Below, piece after piece: positions 2,885 to 10,424 of a stretch of 64,000 bases of DNA. Made by a program: the position numbers and the translations under genes. The notes under the pieces are model-generated. The model saw only the letters and a list, made by a program, of their open reading frames with translations. It made no database searches and was not told the origin of the DNA. Position 1 is the first letter of the stretch. Every line of letters starts with the position of its first letter. The DNA is taken from the NCBI GenBank assembly GCA_043732185.1, contig JAYTHY010000136.1, forward strand, positions 2,326 to 66,325, read 5' to 3'. Source of the DNA: Fibrobacteria bacterium. GTDB lineage: Bacteria; Fibrobacterota; Fibrobacteria; UBA11236.

Positions 2885-5560
2885 ATGAATCAGAAATACC
2901 TGACCAATCTCGGCCTGCAAGGCGATTTTGTCGACTCCTTGCGCGAATGCTACAACCGGCGTGAACCAGCCGAGCGGATCACTGCCGTCAAGTCCGTTCT
3001 GGCGCGCCATCGCAGCAGGATTCGGACTATCAATCAAAGCGGCCTCTCCGGTACAGATACGGTGCGTTTTATCAGTGAAATGACCGACACTTTGATCCGG
3101 GTGATGTGGGATCAACTTGAGATGACGCAGCCCAACGAGGCCAATCTGGTTGGCGTAGTGGCTGTCGGAGGTTATGGCAGGATGGAGTTGTGTCCGCAAT
3201 CGGATATCGATTTGCTGATCATCACTTCAGAAAAACCCACTCGGCATGAAATCGAACAAGCCGAATACCTGGTTCAGAATTTATGGGACTATGGCTTTCA
3301 GTTGGGCAGTTCAGTCCGCAGTATCTCCCAATGCAAGGAAGCTTCCAGCAAAGATTCTGAAACCTGGACATCTTTTCTCAATGAACGCTTTGTAGCCGGC
3401 AATCACGTCCTCTACCGAAAGTTTGTCGACCTATTATCCAAAAGGCTTTTCCCTTGGAGGGTTTCGGCTTTGATCGAAGCCAAGATCGAGGAACGCGAAC
3501 TCCGCAAGAATCAATTGGGCTCACTTGTGCAGCTACTTGAGCCTAACCTTAAGGAGGGGATAGGTTGCTTGCGCGACGTCCATTCCATGATGTGGATCGC
3601 TAAAGTAAAACACAACTGCAATGATTTCGGAGATTTGGTTCGCGAAGGATTGCTCACGCCACAAGAGGCGGAAGATATCCGCGTGGGGTATGATTTTCTC
3701 TTGCAAGTACGTTGCTGTCTGCATTTTATGACGCAGAAGAAGGACGATCATCTCACCTTTTCCCTGCAACCCGATGTGGCCAAAGAACTCGGTTTTGAAG
3801 AGGATCACAATCAAAAACCGGTCGAAGTTTTTCTTAAAGTCTTTTATCATCACACCAAAACCATCCTTCGCGTAACCTCCGGAGTGGTCTCGCGTTGGAT
3901 TAAAGTCAAAGAGAAAATCGCTAAAGCTTCCATACTCAAGGATCACTCCCATTTCAAAACCGTGGACGGTGTTCTTGACTTGAAAACGCGAGTGGGGAAC
4001 CCATTCCTGGATAATATCAGCTTGATATTGGAGTATTTTGAGATATCCAATCAGCGCCAACTTGGATATGCCCATCACGCCATCCTTCGTCTCAAACAGG
4101 CTATCAGCATCCTATCCAGCAACCAAGAACTCGACACAAAATCGCATCTGATTGAATTCCTCCGCCTTTGCAAAAGCACGGAGCGAGCCGGTCGCATGCT
4201 CAGATGCATGAATGACGTTCGATTAATTGGCCTACTCATACCGGACTTCAACCATATCTACTGTCATAGCCAGCACGACATTTACCATATCTACACAACC
4301 GATGAGCATACTATCACTGTGGTGCGACAGCTGGCTTATATGGCCAAGCATACCGATAAGCAAATGGAATCCCTCCAGAAGGCGTTTTCCTTGGTCAATG
4401 ACATGGAAGTGCTGATCTTGGCCTGCTTCTACCACGATATTGGAAAGGGCGTGGGCCCCAATCACAGCATCAGCGGCGCGAAGATGATTTTCGAGTTCAT
4501 GGAGAAAATGGGATTCTCAGCTTCGCGATGTAAGGAAGCAGCCAATTTGGTTTTATACCATCTCATTATGAACGAGGTAATTCAGAGAAGGGATTTGGAA
4601 GATCCCAAAACTATCAGGGATTTCATTACCAAGGTGGAAAGTCCAGCTACCTTGCATAAGCTCTATGTGCTGACCTATTGTGACGTCTCCTCCGTGCATC
4701 CTGATGCCTGGTCCAGTTGGAAGGCTATCTTGCTGCAGAAGTTATATGACGGGGCGCTAGAGGAGATGCAAAGCCCTTTCCAGGCTGTTTTAGCTTCGCG
4801 AAGCCTGGAAGATCAGTTGATAGAGAACGTATCCAAGCGAATTTCGGAATCCGAAGTTCGCACGCACCTGGAGATGCTGCCTCGCCAGTACGCATCTTCA
4901 ACTACACCGGAAGATATCATTGTCCATATTGGTATGCTGGCTTCCTTGGTTTCACAAAAGTTTAGCGTTCGTATTCTCGAAAGACCTACCCATTGGGAGA
5001 TTACCGTAGTCGCAAATGATGATGAAGCTCTGCTTCTCACCATAGCGGGTACGCTGACCCAACTCGATCTCTCCATTTTAAGTGCCCGTATTTTCACTCG
5101 TGTGGATGGTAAAGCAATCGATAAGTTCTCTGTATCCGTGCCCGAAGGATGGAAATCGGGATCTAGTTTGGAGCATGGCCTGGTCCAAGAATTGGAGAAG
5201 AACACTCGATTGTCGCATGCGCAATTGCAGGATTTAAGAACGCGCTTTAAGACGAAAAATGTTTTTAAAAAAGTGCGCGACATGCGTATGAAGCCCGCTG
5301 TGACGTTCTCAAACACGATCTCTGATAATTTCAGCACGGTCGATCTCACCTGCTCGGACCGCATAGGATTGCTTTTCCAAGTGTGTAAGGTCCTCAGCGA
5401 GTTGAAGTTGCAAGTCCATGGCGCCATCTTGACTACCGAAGCCGACAAGGCGATGGACGCATTTTATATTACCGACGCTGCGAATAAAAAAATTGAAGAT
5501 GCACAACTCATTGATTCGATTATGACTACACTCATTTCGGAGTTGTCGGATACGTTGTGA
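2885..5560 (+). CDS. glnD: [Protein-PII] uridylyltransferase/uridylyl-removing enzyme GlnD
   Basis: 891 aa. Nucleotidyltransferase motif GGYGRMELCPQSDIDLL, HD domain (HDIGKG), and two C-terminal ACT-like domains. Confidence 0.85.
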   Translation: MNQKYLTNLGLQGDFVDSLRECYNRREPAERITAVKSVLARHRSRIRTINQSGLSGTDTVRFISEMTDTLIRVMWDQLEMTQPNEANLVGVVAVGGYGRMELCPQSDIDLLIITSEKPTRHEIEQAEYLVQNLWDYGFQLGSSVRSISQCKEASSKDSETWTSFLNERFVAGNHVLYRKFVDLLSKRLFPWRVSALIEAKIEERELRKNQLGSLVQLLEPNLKEGIGCLRDVHSMMWIAKVKHNCNDFGDLVREGLLTPQEAEDIRVGYDFLLQVRCCLHFMTQKKDDHLTFSLQPDVAKELGFEEDHNQKPVEVFLKVFYHHTKTILRVTSGVVSRWIKVKEKIAKASILKDHSHFKTVDGVLDLKTRVGNPFLDNISLILEYFEISNQRQLGYAHHAILRLKQAISILSSNQELDTKSHLIEFLRLCKSTERAGRMLRCMNDVRLIGLLIPDFNHIYCHSQHDIYHIYTTDEHTITVVRQLAYMAKHTDKQMESLQKAFSLVNDMEVLILACFYHDIGKGVGPNHSISGAKMIFEFMEKMGFSASRCKEAANLVLYHLIMNEVIQRRDLEDPKTIRDFITKVESPATLHKLYVLTYCDVSSVHPDAWSSWKAILLQKLYDGALEEMQSPFQAVLASRSLEDQLIENVSKRISESEVRTHLEMLPRQYASSTTPEDIIVHIGMLASLVSQKFSVRILERPTHWEITVVANDDEALLLTIAGTLTQLDLSILSARIFTRVDGKAIDKFSVSVPEGWKSGSSLEHGLVQELEKNTRLSHAQLQDLRTRFKTKNVFKKVRDMRMKPAVTFSNTISDNFSTVDLTCSDRIGLLFQVCKVLSELKLQVHGAILTTEADKAMDAFYITDAANKKIEDAQLIDSIMTTLISELSDTL

Positions 5561-5626
5561 AGACATCTTGCAGCGACGAGATGATCACAGACTAAAAAAT
5601 ATTTTTTCATTTTTTTTAAATAACTG

Positions 5627-5645
5627 CTTGACTATTTAAGTCAAG
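5627..5645. promoter_or_regulatory. Perfect 7-bp inverted repeat CTTGACT-attta-AGTCAAG overlapping a TTGACT (-35-like) / TATCAT (-10-like) pair; candidate operator/promoter
   Basis: Seen directly in the sequence. Additional AGTCAA-like half-sites occur at about 5712 and 5755. Confidence 0.3.
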
Positions 5646-5809
5646 AACTTTATCATTAAGTCATCAAAGAGTTGAAGCGGGAAAGATTGAACATCAAAAG
5701 CAAACATTCTGAAGTCAATCTCGAGGAAAGAAAATTTTCTCGAAACGTTTTTCGGTCAATAACCACAGACCCAAAACGAACCGCACTGTCTGTCGTAACA
5801 AACATCACT

Positions 5810-5815
5810 TATAAT
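5810..5815 (+). promoter_or_regulatory. Consensus TATAAT -10 hexamer about 28 nt upstream of the mini-ORF start
   Basis: Perfect TATAAT, but no good -35 match. Called from sequence only. Confidence 0.25.
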
Positions 5816-5843
5816 AATTTAAATGCCGGAGGGAGGTGATTAC

Positions 5844-5930
5844 ATGGCCGCCAAGAAGAAAGCTACCAAGAAGGTTGCAAAGAAAGCTGCAAAAAAGGTT
5901 GCTAAGAAAGCTTCCAAGAAGAAGAAGTAG
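5844..5930 (+). CDS. 28-aa lysine/alanine-rich basic mini-protein (MAAKKKATKKVAKKAAKKVAKKASKKKK), histone-H1/Hc-like tail composition
   Basis: GGAGG sits 8 nt upstream of the ATG. The frame is clean to a TAG stop and is followed by a hairpin plus T-run terminator. It falls below the 60-aa cutoff of the supplied ORF track. Confidence 0.5.
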   Translation: MAAKKKATKKVAKKAAKKVAKKASKKKK

Positions 5931-5973
5931 TTCTTCGGTATCCCCGTGAGGGTGATATCTAAGCTTAGAGGAG

Positions 5974-6002
5974 GTCAGGATTTCCTGACTTCCTTTTTTA
6001 TT
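5974..6002 (+). terminator. Rho-independent terminator (GTCAGG-attt-CCTGAC stem followed by TTCCTTTTTTATT)
   Basis: The hairpin and T-tract lie immediately downstream of the mini-ORF. Confidence 0.5.
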
Positions 6003-6108
6003 GTATATCGAGTAATTAAAACATCTTAGCAGGCCAAGTAAACGACCTTCAGATGGAACCTCTGGGTAAGCACTAGGAAAATATTTCCTAGTCAGCCCCA
6101 TCTGCAAC

Positions 6109-7854
6109 TTACATTTGTTCGATTGCCGGTACGCCGATCATCTCAAGGGCTAAGCCAAGGGTAATTCGAGTGCAATCGATTAAGAAGAGCCGCTCGGCTT
6201 CCGCTTCGCTGCCCAATGCGCGGCATACATGCAGAAAACTATGCGTTCCCTCTGCAATTTCAAGTACATATTGGGCTACGGCGATGGGGTCATTGGCATC
6301 GATGGCAGTCTTGATTTTATCAGGAAAAAGGCTCAAGGTTCGGATTAATGCCTGTGTTTGCGGCTCAGAAAACTTCGAAAAGTCGATTCCGGCAGTGCCA
6401 GACTGGGCAGGACGATCCGGCTCATGCCGGTTAAATCGCTCCGCACTTTTTCGGAGGATGCTGCAAAGCCGGACATGAGCATTCTGCACATAGGGTCCAG
6501 AATCGCCTTCAAAGCTTAGTGCTTTATCCCATTCAAAGCGTATGTCGTTAAGGCGTCGGTTCTTAAGTTCGGAGAAAACCAGCGCACCCACACCGATTTT
6601 CATGGCCAGAGTATCCTTATCGACGGCATCAGGGTTTTTTTCCTGAATAATACCAAGGATTTTTTCCTGCGCGCCGATCATCACATCTTTAAGCAAACTG
6701 GTTTGCCCGCTCCGAGTCTTTCCCTTTTCCCATCCGCCTTCTTCACTCTTAATCAAGACCAATCCAAATGGGACATGGACAACTTTATCCTGCCAAGGGA
6801 ATTCCATGAGTTCCAATATTTTTTTCAACTGCTGGAAATGCAGGCTTTGTCCATTGTCGACGATATACAAGCAAAGGTCGAAGGAAAAAGTTTGCTGGCG
6901 ATATATGGCCGCAGCAATATCACGGGTGATATACAGGGTGGCGCCATCGGTTTTGCGCAGCAGGGCTGGGGGCAGATTGTGTAGAGATAGGTCCACTATT
7001 TCAGCGCCTTGACTTTTTGTCACCAGTCCCCGGTTTTCGAGATCGAGCATTGTCTTACCCATGTGATCCAGGAAGTAAGATTCACCTGTGTAATAATCGA
7101 ACTCAACGGCAAGCATTGTGTAAATGCGCTGGAGCTCCTTTAAGGTGATATCCTTAAAGGCCTGCCAGAGACCACGGAATCGCACATCTCCCGCTTCCAG
7201 CTGTTGGAAAGCGTCTCGCGCCTGGTTTTCAAGAATCGCATCTATTTGGGAAGCTTTTTCAAATCCCTTATACAGGTTATTGAGTCGCTCGATCGTTATA
7301 TCGGCCAAGTCAGATTCCGATAATCCTTCGCGCAAGAACATCACAATGAGTTTGCCGTAGGACGTGCCCCAGTCACCCAGGTGGTTGATTCTGACAACCC
7401 GATATCCAGCCCATCGATATATTCGGCTTAGTGAGTTGCCGATCATCGTTCCGCGTAAATGGTGAAAGGCAAGTTCTTTCCCCATATTTGGAGAGGAATA
7501 ATCAATGACTACCGTGCGGCCTTGGCCAAGCTCAGTTTTTCCATAGTCTCGACCCATCTCTGCAATCTTGCTCAAAGTCCGTCGGGCAAAATCAGTTGGG
7601 TCAATGAAAAAATTGAGATAACCACCGAGCGCTTCAATTTTTGTAAACGCACCGAAAGGCTGGATGGCATCCGCCAATTCTTTCGCGATAACGGGTGGGG
7701 CCTTGCGCAATTTTTTGGCGAGGGCAAAACATGGAAATGAGAAGTCTCCCTGGCCAGCATGCTGGGGAAGAGTCAAGACATCGTGAATTTCGGTGGGAGA
7801 GAGAGTAGCAAGCGGCGCAAGCAAGGCCGCAATTTCCTCTTTATAAGTCTTCAT
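6109..7854 (-). CDS. argS: Arginine--tRNA ligase
   Basis: Class-I motif block IDYSSPNMGKELAFHHLRGTMIGNSLSRIY plus the C-terminal anticodon-binding region. The ORF is open to 7968, but the Met at 7854 (MKTYKEE) avoids overlap with rsfS and gives a typical length. Confidence 0.85.
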   Translation of the reverse strand: MKTYKEEIAALLAPLATLSPTEIHDVLTLPQHAGQGDFSFPCFALAKKLRKAPPVIAKELADAIQPFGAFTKIEALGGYLNFFIDPTDFARRTLSKIAEMGRDYGKTELGQGRTVVIDYSSPNMGKELAFHHLRGTMIGNSLSRIYRWAGYRVVRINHLGDWGTSYGKLIVMFLREGLSESDLADITIERLNNLYKGFEKASQIDAILENQARDAFQQLEAGDVRFRGLWQAFKDITLKELQRIYTMLAVEFDYYTGESYFLDHMGKTMLDLENRGLVTKSQGAEIVDLSLHNLPPALLRKTDGATLYITRDIAAAIYRQQTFSFDLCLYIVDNGQSLHFQQLKKILELMEFPWQDKVVHVPFGLVLIKSEEGGWEKGKTRSGQTSLLKDVMIGAQEKILGIIQEKNPDAVDKDTLAMKIGVGALVFSELKNRRLNDIRFEWDKALSFEGDSGPYVQNAHVRLCSILRKSAERFNRHEPDRPAQSGTAGIDFSKFSEPQTQALIRTLSLFPDKIKTAIDANDPIAVAQYVLEIAEGTHSFLHVCRALGSEAEAERLFLIDCTRITLGLALEMIGVPAIEQM

Positions 7855-8254
7855 CCTCGTCTTCGGCATCTTCCTGGTGAGTGACATAATCTTCCGCTTT
7901 GAGCTTGGTCGATTTGGCATCGGCCCAAAGGCGTTCCAAGGAATAATAATTTCTGGTGTCTTTTTCAAACAGATGTAGGATCAGATCGCCATAGTCGAGC
8001 ACGGCCCATTTCACACCGCCGTGGTATTCGGAGCGCAGCGCTTTCAGTCCATCCCGACTGAGCATTTTATAGGTATAGTGCAAAAGTGCCCGCATTTGCG
8101 CTTCATTGGCGCAGGTGCAGATGAGATAGTAATCCGTTAGTGAACTCAGACCGCGCAAATCGAGCAAGACCACTTCTTCCGCCTTCTTGCTGAAAAGTAT
8201 GGTCGCTGCTTTATTAGCCAAGTCCAGTGCCTCTATGTTTTTTGCTTTTGCCAT
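7841..8254 (-). CDS. rsfS: Ribosomal silencing factor RsfS (Iojap family)
   Basis: 137 aa with VLLDLRGLSSLTDYYLICTCANEAQMRAL and an acidic C-terminal tail. Confidence 0.8.
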   Translation of the reverse strand: MAKAKNIEALDLANKAATILFSKKAEEVVLLDLRGLSSLTDYYLICTCANEAQMRALLHYTYKMLSRDGLKALRSEYHGGVKWAVLDYGDLILHLFEKDTRNYYSLERLWADAKSTKLKAEDYVTHQEDAEDEDEDL

Positions 8255-10337: not shown

Positions 10338-10424
10338 TGGTGCCGAGGGGGGGAATTGAACCCCCACAGAGTTGCCCCTATCGGATTTTGAGTCCGACGC
10401 GTCTACCAATTTCACCACCTCGGC
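10338..10424 (-). tRNA. tRNA-Leu(CAA), type II with a long variable arm and encoded CCA
   Basis: Reverse complement reads GCCGAGGTGGTGAAATTGGTAGACGCGTCGGACTCAAAATCCGATAGGGGCAACTCTGTGGGGGTTCAATTCCCCCCCTCGGCACCA. It has a 7-bp acceptor stem, anticodon stem TCGGA/TCCGA with loop CTCAAAA, and T-arm GGGGG-TTCAATT-CCCCC. Confidence 0.9.

What the first reader, a model, noticed from the sequence alone, without database searches (positions are those of the whole stretch)
5844..5930. Unannotated 28-codon lysine/alanine-rich mini-gene with its own SD and terminator
It encodes MAAKKKATKKVAKKAAKKVAKKASKKKK. GGAGG sits 8 nt upstream, a TATAAT lies about 28 nt further up, and a clean hairpin plus T-run terminator follows 44 nt after the TAG. 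The composition is that of histone H1 / chlamydial Hc / AlgP-type KKAAKK DNA-binding tails, but here it is a free-standing peptide. It is too short for the ORF track and would be missed by most gene callers. It could be a nucleoid- or ribosome-associated basic peptide.
Basis: seen in the sequence. Interest (0 to 1): 0.5.

Follow-up and report, generated by a model that had tools for sequence, protein, structure and literature searches.

The report
Conserved unannotated polylysine micro-gene
A 28-codon gene for a very positively charged lysine/alanine peptide is real and conserved across an uncultured Fibrobacteria lineage, has its own promoter, structured leader and terminator, and is almost absent from protein databases; its cellular target is still unknown.

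Summary
The ORF at 5844-5930 (MAAKKKATKKVAKKAAKKVAKKASKKKK) is there as described. It is a real gene. A small ORF starting MA[A/T/I]KKK lies between glnD and a convergent argS in all 21 informative Fibrobacteria loci (ArgS identity 98% to 55%), and in metagenome contigs. Its length runs from 19 to 91 codons, always in frame. Substitutions fall mostly at third codon positions, every lysine is invariant, and the other sense frames acquire stops. The long ribosome-binding site GGAGGTGAT, a hairpin after the stop codon and an intrinsic terminator are conserved.

The conserved promoter is TTGACT-N17-TATCAT at 5628-5656. It implies a leader of about 185 nt with a covarying three-helix fold (5669-5794) that matches no Rfam family.

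Gene callers miss the gene. An exhaustive search of 1.84 billion representative proteins found one hit, and the nearest other database entry checked is a stop-codon read-through artefact.

The most likely function is a sequence-independent polycation that binds DNA or another polyanion. It would act like a free-standing histone H1 tail, or like the Hc2, AlgP or ScvA proteins. This function is inferred, not shown. A ribosome or RNA role is the main rival.

Similar tiny polylysine genes, many with sigma-54-type promoter motifs upstream, occur in high-GC bacteria of undetermined phylum.

The parts
5593..5627 (+). A/T-rich tract directly upstream of the -35 element. It could be an UP-like element. 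In relatives it also serves as the T-run of the glnD terminator.
   Evidence: Sequence. In the alignment, most closer relatives have a GC-rich hairpin followed by a T-run between the glnD stop and the promoter. The role is inferred.
5628..5656 (+). Conserved sigma-70-type promoter TTGACT-N17-TATCAT. It includes an inverted repeat, TTGAC-N7-GTCAA (5628-5644). The implied transcription start is near 5663.
   Evidence: Best promoter match in the region, 10 of 12. Present 187-259 nt upstream of the ATG in every Fibrobacteria-type locus that has enough upstream sequence. A single match in the window, against 0.02 expected. The transcription start itself is not mapped.
5669..5794 (+). Structured 5' leader. 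P1 pairs 5677-5680 with 5781-5784. P2 is the hairpin 5721-5743. P3 spans 5746-5778 and carries the conserved loop AATAACCACA (5758-5767).
   Evidence: RNAalifold on 10 relatives gives 23 pairs, 11 with compensatory changes. 87.4% of cells are paired against 78.9% in shuffles, with 0 of 500 shuffles reaching the observed covariation; slid controls give 28-50%. The window's own minimum-energy fold reproduces it, z = -3.5. The covariance model scores 105 bits here and hits nowhere else in the window. No Rfam family matches.
5828..5840 (+). Extended Shine-Dalgarno sequence GGAGGGAGGTGAT.
   Evidence: AGGGAGGTGAT, or AGGAGGTGAT in one locus, is present in all 21 syntenic loci. The predicted duplex with a generic 16S 3' tail is -19.5 kcal/mol, against a best of -14.4 among 44 long ORFs of the window. 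GGAGGTGAT is unique in the window.
5844..5930 (+). Coding sequence of the 28-aa Lys/Ala peptide: an MAAKKK cap, xxKK tetrapeptide repeats and a KKKK tail. About 3.0 kDa, pI about 11.2, net charge about +14.5.
   Evidence: The frame is conserved over lengths of 19-91 codons. Replacements are only A/V, A/T and S/T. Lys codons are AAG 11 to AAA 4, against 373 to 541 in the long ORFs of the window.
5937..5959 (+). Hairpin in the 3' UTR just after the stop codon (GGTATCCCC-GTGA-GGGTGATATC).
   Evidence: RNAfold places a hairpin between the stop codon and the terminator in nearly all of the 22 sequences folded. The sequence varies while the stem is kept. Function unknown.
5967..5999 (+). Intrinsic terminator: a 13-bp stem followed by a T-run.
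   Evidence: Terminator scan. A strong hairpin followed by a T-run is present in all related loci.

Best explanation
The ORF at 5844-5930 is a genuine, independently transcribed micro-gene.

Transcription and translation (inferred from conserved signals):
- Transcription starts at a conserved sigma-70-type promoter (5628-5656).
- It runs through a structured leader of about 185 nt.
- Translation starts from an unusually long Shine-Dalgarno sequence.
- Transcription ends at an intrinsic terminator about 70 nt after the stop codon.

Product: a peptide of 28 aa, or 27 aa if the initiator Met is removed. It is a uniform polycation, with lysine pairs every four residues separated by Ala, Val or Thr.

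Proposed mechanism (inferred): the peptide binds polyanions by charge and not by sequence. The most probable target is chromosomal DNA. It would neutralise and compact DNA in the way the C-terminal tail of histone H1, chlamydial Hc2, the AlgP/PhaF KPAA domain and Coxiella ScvA do, but as the tail alone. The number of repeats, and so the charge, is free to drift between lineages (19-91 aa). The leader probably sets how much peptide is made.

Shown: the gene is conserved and under coding constraint, and its expression signals are conserved. Inferred: translation itself, the binding target and the regulation.
For: Coding and conservation:
- The gene is syntenic (mlaE-glnD, then the peptide gene, then convergent argS-rsfS) in 21 of 21 informative loci, with ArgS identity 98% to 55%.
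- The frame is kept across lengths of 19-91 codons.
- Variable columns by codon position are 3/5/13, all Lys are invariant and replacements are conservative. The +1 and +2 frames acquire stops in relatives.
- AAG is preferred over AAA, against the usage in the window's long ORFs.

Expression signals:
- The SD is invariant and is the strongest in the window.
- The promoter is conserved.
- The terminator is conserved.
- The leader shows covariation.

Polyanion binding:
- 54% Lys, net charge about +14.5, and no hydrophobic face; the resultant of the Lys positions on a helical wheel is 0.24.
- A profile of the family finds mainly K/A tails fused to other proteins. Seven of the 13 hits are a topoisomerase I fragment or SWIB-domain proteins.
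- Free variation in repeat number parallels Hc2 (PMC2848022).
- KPAA-type peptides bind DNA, and AlgP is nucleoid- and polyphosphate-associated (PMC9239181).
- ScvA and Hq1 are small basic DNA-binding proteins that exist on their own (PMC4766238).
Against: - There are no expression, translation or binding data for this gene or any homologue.
- The composition alone fits RNA, ribosomes or polyphosphate equally well.
- No Pfam or NCBIfam family matches, including HC2, Hc1 and linker histone. The low-complexity bias filters make that result weak in both directions.
- The very long SD and the structured leader recall ribosomal-protein-type autoregulation, which favours the ribosome rival.
- The neighbours (glnD here, a sigma-54 two-component system in the second group) hint at nutrient-regulated expression, not at a constitutive chromatin protein.
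Confidence: 0.5

Rival explanations
1. The peptide is associated with ribosomes or RNA: a lineage-specific ribosomal or hibernation micro-protein. Its synthesis would be coupled to the state of the ribosome through the very long SD, as rpsU (bS21) is in Bacteroidia.
For: - The SD duplex of -19.5 kcal/mol is an extreme outlier in the window. Across 44 long ORFs, SD strength at putative starts does not differ from internal controls, p = 0.63.
- Fibrobacterota are conventionally grouped with Bacteroidota in the FCB group (my own knowledge).
[quoted passage not shown] The one gene with a strong SD is rpsU, which is autoregulated through the free anti-SD (PMC9976891, PMC13000453).
- A strong promoter-like element next to an A/T-rich tract, a structured leader and a tiny basic product are typical of ribosomal-protein genes.
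Against: - The length varies from 19 to 91 aa and no position is conserved other than Lys, Ala and the N-terminal cap. That does not fit a defined rRNA binding pocket.
- No NCBIfam or Pfam ribosomal family matches.
- Several genes in the window do show AGGAG-type motifs, and the start sites are uncertain, so the genome is not shown to ignore SD sequences.
- No rpsU is in the window for comparison.
Confidence: 0.2
2. The peptide is a counter-ion or tether for another polyanion, such as polyphosphate granules, and is made under nutrient (nitrogen) limitation.
For: - The gene sits directly downstream of glnD in all Fibrobacteria loci.
- In the second group, the peptide gene follows a PAS histidine kinase and a sigma-54 enhancer-binding response regulator. 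A TGGCAC/T-N5-CTGC motif lies 87-149 nt upstream of the ATG in 21 of the 34 distinct loci examined.
- AlgP, through its K/A/P repeat domain, localises to and spaces polyphosphate granules during nitrogen starvation (PMC9239181).
Against: - The glnD adjacency may be only positional. In most closer relatives glnD has its own terminator, and the micro-gene has its own sigma-70-type promoter.
- NtrC-family regulators control many processes.
- No polyphosphate genes were seen next to the gene.
Confidence: 0.1
3. The locus makes a non-coding RNA, or a dual-function sRNA, and the ORF is not translated. The purine-rich AAG tract and the hairpins would be the functional parts.
For: - The leader is structured and conserved.
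- In one sub-clade (L021, L024, L030, L042) an intrinsic-terminator-like hairpin with a T8-9 run lies inside the leader about 50 nt before the SD. A leader-only RNA could therefore exist.
- There is a weak CsrC-like hit, 13.8 bits against a gathering score of 61.
Against: - The ATG, the SD and the stop stay in one frame over 19-91 codons.
- Substitutions follow a third-position and conservative pattern.
- The other sense frames are broken by stops in relatives.
- No Rfam family reaches its threshold.
Confidence: 0.05
4. The ORF is a regulatory leader peptide whose translation senses lysine or lysyl-tRNA supply, or it is a secreted cationic antimicrobial peptide.
For: - Runs of Lys codons can slow ribosomes (general knowledge).
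- Cationic peptides can be antimicrobial.
Against: - No co-oriented gene lies downstream. A terminator follows directly and the next gene, argS, is convergent in every locus.
- There is no signal peptide and no amphipathic face.
- None of the flanking genes examined is a transporter or immunity gene for such a peptide.
Confidence: 0.04

Closest known systems
C-terminal K/A/P repeat domains of bacterial histone H1-like proteins (Pseudomonas AlgP and PhaF)
   Same: Tandem short Lys/Ala repeats, a very high positive charge and predicted disorder. Peptides made of the repeat bind DNA (PMC9239181).
   Different: AlgP is 352 aa, with a folded N-terminal domain and proline-containing KPAA units. The protein here is only the tail, 19-91 aa, built of xxKK units mostly without Pro, and it has its own promoter, leader and terminator.
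Chlamydia trachomatis Hc2 (hctB)
   Same: A lysine-rich repeat protein that binds DNA and whose size varies through repeat number (PMC2848022). The repeat number varies here too.
   Different: Hc2 is 165-237 aa and built of pentamer repeats. No Pfam HC2 match was found. Hc2 belongs to a developmental cycle, which nothing suggests here.
Coxiella burnetii ScvA (and Hq1)
   Same: An unusually small, free-standing basic peptide described as DNA-binding and tied to a non-growing cell form (PMC4766238, PMC13568565).
   Different: No sequence comparison was made. From my memory, ScvA is Arg/Gln-rich, not Lys/Ala-rich. It comes from an unrelated lineage and gene context.
Lys-rich tails on a topoisomerase I fragment and on SWIB-domain proteins (hits P0001, P0002, P0007)
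   Same: Nearly the same peptide sequence, for example ATKKAAKKATKKVAKKATKK.
   Different: In those proteins the tail is an appendage of an enzyme or a folded domain. Here it is the whole protein.
rpsU (bS21) of Flavobacteriales
   Same: A small basic product, and a gene that stands out by an extended SD (PMC9976891, PMC13000453).
   Different: No sequence similarity. It is not shown that this lineage ignores SD sequences. This is an analogy of regulation only.

Membership tests
Bacterial histone H1-like / Hc2 / AlgP-type K/A-rich DNA-binding proteins | Low-complexity tandem Lys/Ala(/Pro) repeats with a very high positive charge | tested here: met
   15 Lys and 8 Ala in 28 residues, an xxKK period of 4 and net charge about +14.5. 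Profile hits are mainly K/A tails.
Bacterial histone H1-like / Hc2 / AlgP-type K/A-rich DNA-binding proteins | Match to a curated family model (Pfam HC2, Hc1, linker histone; NCBIfam) | tested here: not met
   No family matched in Pfam (E <= 0.01) or NCBIfam (E <= 10) for the 28-aa peptide. The bias filters weaken this test.
Bacterial histone H1-like / Hc2 / AlgP-type K/A-rich DNA-binding proteins | Repeat tract attached to a larger protein or domain (more than 100 aa) | tested here: not met
   The product is free-standing, 19-91 aa, with a conserved start and stop.
Bacterial histone H1-like / Hc2 / AlgP-type K/A-rich DNA-binding proteins | Binds and compacts DNA | not testable with these tools
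   Needs EMSA, compaction assays or localisation.
Small ribosomal proteins (bTHX, bS22, bL34, bL36, bS21) | Match to a ribosomal-protein family model, with fixed length and conserved positions | tested here: not met
   No NCBIfam or Pfam hit. The length varies 19-91 aa and only Lys, Ala and the N-terminal cap are conserved.
Small ribosomal proteins (bTHX, bS22, bL34, bL36, bS21) | Physical presence in purified ribosomes | not testable with these tools
   Needs ribosome purification with mass spectrometry or cryo-EM.
Known non-coding RNA or riboswitch families (Rfam 15) | Covariance-model score at or above the gathering threshold | tested here: not met
   Only a tRNA elsewhere in the window reaches threshold. 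In 5000-6700 and 5650-6010 the best hits are CsrC at 13.8 bits against a threshold of 61, and other hits far below threshold.
Leader peptide / attenuator | A co-oriented downstream gene whose expression depends on translation of the small ORF | tested here: not met
   A terminator follows directly and then the convergent argS, in all loci.
Type I toxin or membrane-active cationic peptide | A hydrophobic or amphipathic helix | tested here: not met
   No hydrophobic stretch. The Lys residues are spread around the helix, resultant 0.24.
Coxiella ScvA-like small basic DNA-binding peptides | Sequence homology to ScvA | not tested
   No ScvA sequence was compared. The resemblance is one of size and charge only (PMC4766238, PMC13568565).

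The most novel reading that the evidence does not exclude
The window holds one member of a widespread class of regulated polylysine micro-proteins (12-92 aa) that annotation has overlooked. The class would be found in Fibrobacteria and in at least two other bacterial groups. Each gene is a stand-alone unit with a very long SD, a hairpin after the stop codon and a terminator, and each is under dedicated control. In Fibrobacteria that control would be a new structured leader RNA, riboswitch-like, with either a terminator or an SD-sequestering expression platform depending on the clade. In the high-GC group it would be a sigma-54 two-component system. The very long SD may restrict translation to ribosomes whose anti-SD is free, which would tie synthesis of the polycation to the state of the ribosome or of nutrient supply.
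Probability: 0.3. Interest if true: 0.8.

Novelty: new variant of a known kind. Interest (0 to 1): 0.6.

Why it matters
- **A hidden abundant component.** If the peptide is made at the level its signals suggest, it could be a major polycation of these cells. Annotation pipelines miss it because it is under 30 codons. Trypsin-based proteomics would miss it because it is cut at every second residue. The AlgP paper makes the same point about closely spaced lysines (PMC9239181).
- **A minimal model.** It is a natural "H1 tail only" protein. Such a protein would make it possible to test directly how much of nucleoid compaction, or of RNA or polyphosphate handling, needs only charge.
- **A new RNA element.** The covarying leader with no Rfam match is a candidate cis-regulatory RNA.
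- **A blind spot in databases.** Similar genes with sigma-54-type promoter motifs occur in other bacteria, so this may be a general gap in bacterial gene catalogues.

Tried and rejected
- **Upstream ATG at 5823 (35-aa version).** It lies next to the SD and is absent in most relatives. It is the form gene callers pick up (P0014).
- **Antisense ORF 5805-6107 (100 aa).** It is conserved only where it mirrors the coding sequence. It stays open because the reverse complements of Lys, Ala, Val and Thr codons cannot form stops. It has no family match.
- **Upstream ORF 5672-5839 (55 aa, TTG start, ending inside the SD).** The frame is open in close relatives but interrupted in L021, L022 and L024, and the amino acids are not conserved outside the block that is conserved at nucleotide level.
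It is not conserved and has no -35 partner.
- **Protein searches.**
  - Exact look-up of 10 family members found none.
- **Covariance model R1.** It found only its own training loci, so the leader fold could not be extended to distant clades in this way. RNAalifold on the whole set of 18 leaders gave no structure because the alignment was poor.
- **Metagenome pattern.** I used a spacing of N4-7 between the SD and the ATG. The window's own subgroup has N3 and was therefore not retrieved.
- **SD sequestration by the leader.** The SD is predicted to be mostly paired (unpaired probability 0.14-0.61), but there is no consistent conserved partner.
- **Literature searches.** Searches for the peptide sequence motifs and for Fibrobacter basic proteins found nothing on this gene.
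- **Structure prediction.** Not run: the peptide is below the 30-aa minimum, and a model of a low-complexity sequence would say little.

Full report
**Observation**

- The ORF runs from ATG 5844 to TAG 5928-5930 and encodes MAAKKKATKKVAKKAAKKVAKKASKKKK.
- GGAGG is at 5832-5836, 7 nt before the start.
- TATAAT is at 5810-5815.
- A 13-bp hairpin at 5967-5996 is followed by six T. The stem begins 36 nt after the stop, not 44.
- The mechanical ORF list gives 5823-5930 (35 aa) because of an in-frame upstream ATG next to the SD.
- The flanking genes are glnD (2885-5560, +) and, convergent, argS (6109-7968, -) followed by rsfS.

**Origin and relatives**

A scan of one genome per species with ArgS returned 24 loci from uncultured Fibrobacteria/Fibrobacterota genomes, with ArgS identity from 98% down to 55%.

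In 21 of them a small ORF lies just downstream of argS on the opposite strand. It begins MA[A/T/I]KKK and consists of Lys pairs separated by Ala, Val, Thr or Pro. The three other loci end before that position.

The gene order mlaE-glnD, then the peptide gene, then convergent argS-rsfS is kept throughout. The length varies from 19 to 91 codons, always in frame and always with a stop.

**Coding evidence**

- Ten orthologues of the same length show 3, 5 and 13 variable columns at codon positions 1, 2 and 3.
- All lysines are invariant. The only replacements are A/V, A/T and S/T.
- The +1 and +2 frames acquire stops in relatives.
- Lys codons are AAG 11 to AAA 4, while the long ORFs of the window prefer AAA, 541 to 373. 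This fits avoidance of slippery A-runs or a bias of highly expressed genes.
- The antisense 100-aa ORF is open only because reverse complements of these codons cannot give stops. It is conserved only where it mirrors the coding sequence.

I take the gene as real with about 0.9 confidence. Translation itself has not been observed.

**Expression signals**

*Ribosome-binding site.* The SD is not just GGAGG. AGGGAGGTGAT, the complement of the 16S 3' end, is essentially invariant in all 21 syntenic loci. GGAGGTGAT occurs once in the 64 kb. Its predicted duplex with a generic 16S tail is -19.5 kcal/mol, against a best of -14.4 among 44 long ORFs.

*3' end.* After the stop codon, nearly every locus has a first hairpin of variable sequence (window 5937-5959). 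All have a strong terminator hairpin with a T-run.

The most conserved element of the glnD-peptide spacer is TTGACT-N17-TATCAT at 5628-5656.
- It is the best promoter match of the region.
- It is unique in the window, with 0.02 matches expected.
- It is present 187-259 nt upstream of the ATG in every Fibrobacteria-type locus with enough upstream sequence.
- It contains an inverted repeat, TTGAC-N7-GTCAA.
- It is preceded by an A/T-rich tract. In most closer relatives this tract follows a GC-rich hairpin, which is most simply the glnD terminator.

The spacer length of about 275-325 nt is itself conserved.

**The leader**

With a start near 5663, the mRNA has a leader of about 185 nt.
- In the ten closer relatives RNAalifold finds three helices: P1 enclosing P2 and P3. 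Eleven of the 23 pairs have compensatory changes.
- Counted independently, 87.4% of cells pair against 78.9% in shuffles. None of 500 shuffles reaches the observed covariation, and slid controls give 28-50%.
- The window's own minimum-energy fold gives the same helices, z = -3.5.
- P3 carries a conserved loop, CCAATAAMCAC (window 5758-5767). This is the only block conserved in most clades.
- A covariance model built from these sequences hits only this site in the window.
- No Rfam family matches.
- In one sub-clade (L021, L024, L030, L042/L083) the leader contains a clear intrinsic-terminator-like hairpin with T8-9 about 50 nt before the SD. Elsewhere the SD is predicted to be largely paired, but without a consistent partner.

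This pattern fits either a cis-regulatory RNA whose expression platform differs by clade, or a separate small RNA. I could not tell which. An upstream ORF in the leader (5672-5839) is not conserved.

**Absence from databases**

- None of ten family members (28-91 aa) is present by exact sequence among about 15 billion proteins.
- An exhaustive phmmer search of 1.84 billion representatives found a single hit, a 35-aa call that uses the upstream ATG.
- The profile search returned two short entries that carry the peptide plus a tail. I checked one, P0008. Its contig has TAG at the expected stop, so the entry is a read-through artefact. The same contig also carries the promoter and the SD.

**Beyond Fibrobacteria**

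I scanned metagenome contigs for the pattern SD, then N4-7, then ATGGCYRYYAARAARAA. This spacing unfortunately excludes the window's own N3 spacing. The scan gave 62 loci. Only four are of the Fibrobacteria type.

*High-GC group.* The largest group carries a 21-24-aa ORF, MAAKKKAAKKK[A/G]TKKKAAKKKK, on high-GC contigs.
- In the eight loci examined, it lies between a PAS histidine kinase plus a sigma-54 enhancer-binding response regulator and uvrA.
- A sigma-54-like TGGCAC/T-N5-CTGC motif lies 87-149 nt upstream of the ATG in 21 of the 34 distinct loci examined.
- A near-invariant hairpin, GGACCTGGCACGTCC, follows the stop codon.

*A/T-rich group.* A third, A/T-rich group has a 31-43-aa version downstream of argS and glyS.

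The search pattern fixed the SD and the first codons, so those similarities are imposed by the search. The short K-rich ORF and the 3' layout are not. Whether these groups are homologous or convergent is open.

**Function**

The peptide is about 3.0 kDa, with pI about 11.2 and net charge about +14.5. Its lysines are spread all round a helical wheel, so it has no amphipathic face.

The family tolerates a nearly five-fold variation in length. Nothing is conserved except the cap, the Lys pairs and small residues. That argues for a charge-driven interaction without sequence specificity, and against a fixed binding pocket.

The same sequence module is found mainly as a tail on other proteins. The 13 profile hits include a topoisomerase I fragment and six SWIB-domain proteins.

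Known parallels:
- The AlgP/PhaF KPAA domain binds DNA and organises polyphosphate granules (PMC9239181).
- Hc2 varies in size through its repeat number (PMC2848022).
- ScvA and Hq1 are small basic DNA-binding proteins of a non-growing cell form (PMC4766238, PMC13568565).

I therefore favour a stand-alone "H1 tail" that neutralises and compacts DNA, at about 0.5 confidence for the whole statement.

The main rival is a ribosome or RNA role, at about 0.2.
- In its favour is the extreme SD in a window where SD strength at putative starts is no better than at internal controls (p = 0.63). This recalls Flavobacterium johnsoniae, where rpsU is the one gene with a strong SD and is autoregulated through the free anti-SD (PMC9976891, PMC13000453).
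- Against it, the start sites here are uncertain and several genes do show AGGAG motifs. The parallel is therefore a lead and not a result.

A polyphosphate or nutrient-limitation role is suggested by the glnD and sigma-54 contexts. A pure RNA role, a leader-peptide role and an antimicrobial role are all less likely, for the reasons given under the rival explanations.

**Verdict**

The kind of protein (K/A-rich polycationic nucleic-acid binders) is known. New are:
- the free-standing micro-protein form;
- its dedicated transcription unit with a covarying leader that matches no known RNA family;
- its near absence from databases.

I rate it a new variant of a known kind, interest 0.6.

Noticed in passing
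window 5628-5656: The conserved promoter contains an inverted repeat, TTGAC-N7-GTCAA, that overlaps the -35 element and the spacer. It is kept in nearly all Fibrobacteria loci and could be an operator for a dimeric regulator.
   Followed up: partly
window 5669-5794; L021, L024, L030, L042/L083 leaders: The structured leader shows covariation and matches no Rfam family. In one sub-clade it carries an intrinsic-terminator-like hairpin with T8-9 about 50 nt before the SD. This suggests either a riboswitch or attenuator with clade-specific expression platforms, or a separate small RNA.
   Followed up: partly
L026-L085 (e.g. L038 9514-9582, L049 11993-12061, L053, L078): High-GC metagenome contigs carry a 21-24-aa ORF, MAAKKKAAKKK[A/G]TKKKAAKKKK. 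In the eight loci examined it lies between a PAS kinase plus a sigma-54 enhancer-binding response regulator and uvrA. A TGGCAC/T-N5-CTGC motif lies 87-149 nt upstream in 21 of 34 distinct loci, and a near-invariant hairpin, GGACCTGGCACGTCC, follows the stop. The phylum was not determined.
   Followed up: partly
L036, L043, L062, L079: A/T-rich contigs carry a 31-43-aa version (MATKKKVVKKAVKKVAKKAPKK...) downstream of argS and glyS, with a TTGCTA-N17-TATAAT promoter-like site. An arginyl-tRNA synthetase gene is again nearby, which may be coincidence.
   Followed up: no
L088 446-613 (protein P0008); protein P0003: The only short database entries that carry the peptide extend past its stop. For P0008 the contig has TAG at that position, so the entry is a gene call that read TAG as a sense codon. 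P0003 has the same look but was not checked.
   Followed up: partly
window, 44 long ORFs: Predicted anti-SD pairing upstream of putative starts is no stronger than at internal in-frame start-like codons (median -6.0 against -5.9 kcal/mol). The lineage may therefore use SD sequences little, as Bacteroidia do. Start sites are uncertain and some genes do show AGGAG.
   Followed up: partly
window 5967-5996 and homologous terminators in L003-L014: The two arms of the terminator stem read like an SD (AGGAGGT / AAGGGAGGT) and like the 16S 3' end (GACCTCCTTTTT). Distant clades use unrelated GC-rich stems, so this may be chance.
   Followed up: no
window 5672-5839: A 55-codon ORF with a TTG start spans the leader and ends at a TGA inside the SD, 4 nt before the ATG. 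It is open in close relatives but broken in L021, L022 and L024.
   Followed up: yes
L047, L048, L064, L068: An unrelated 53-aa acidic protein (MAAKKKWFNVLLEKTVV...) shares the same SD and the same first six codons. L027 and L033 carry a Cys-rich 32-33-aa ORF with a similar start.
   Followed up: no
L006, L008, L010 (between the peptide terminator and the argS stop): The gap between the micro-gene and argS is about 630-690 nt in these relatives, against about 110 nt in the window. Something may be inserted there.
   Followed up: no
window 10341-10424 (-): The only Rfam hit above threshold in the 64 kb is a tRNA (59 bits).
   Followed up: no
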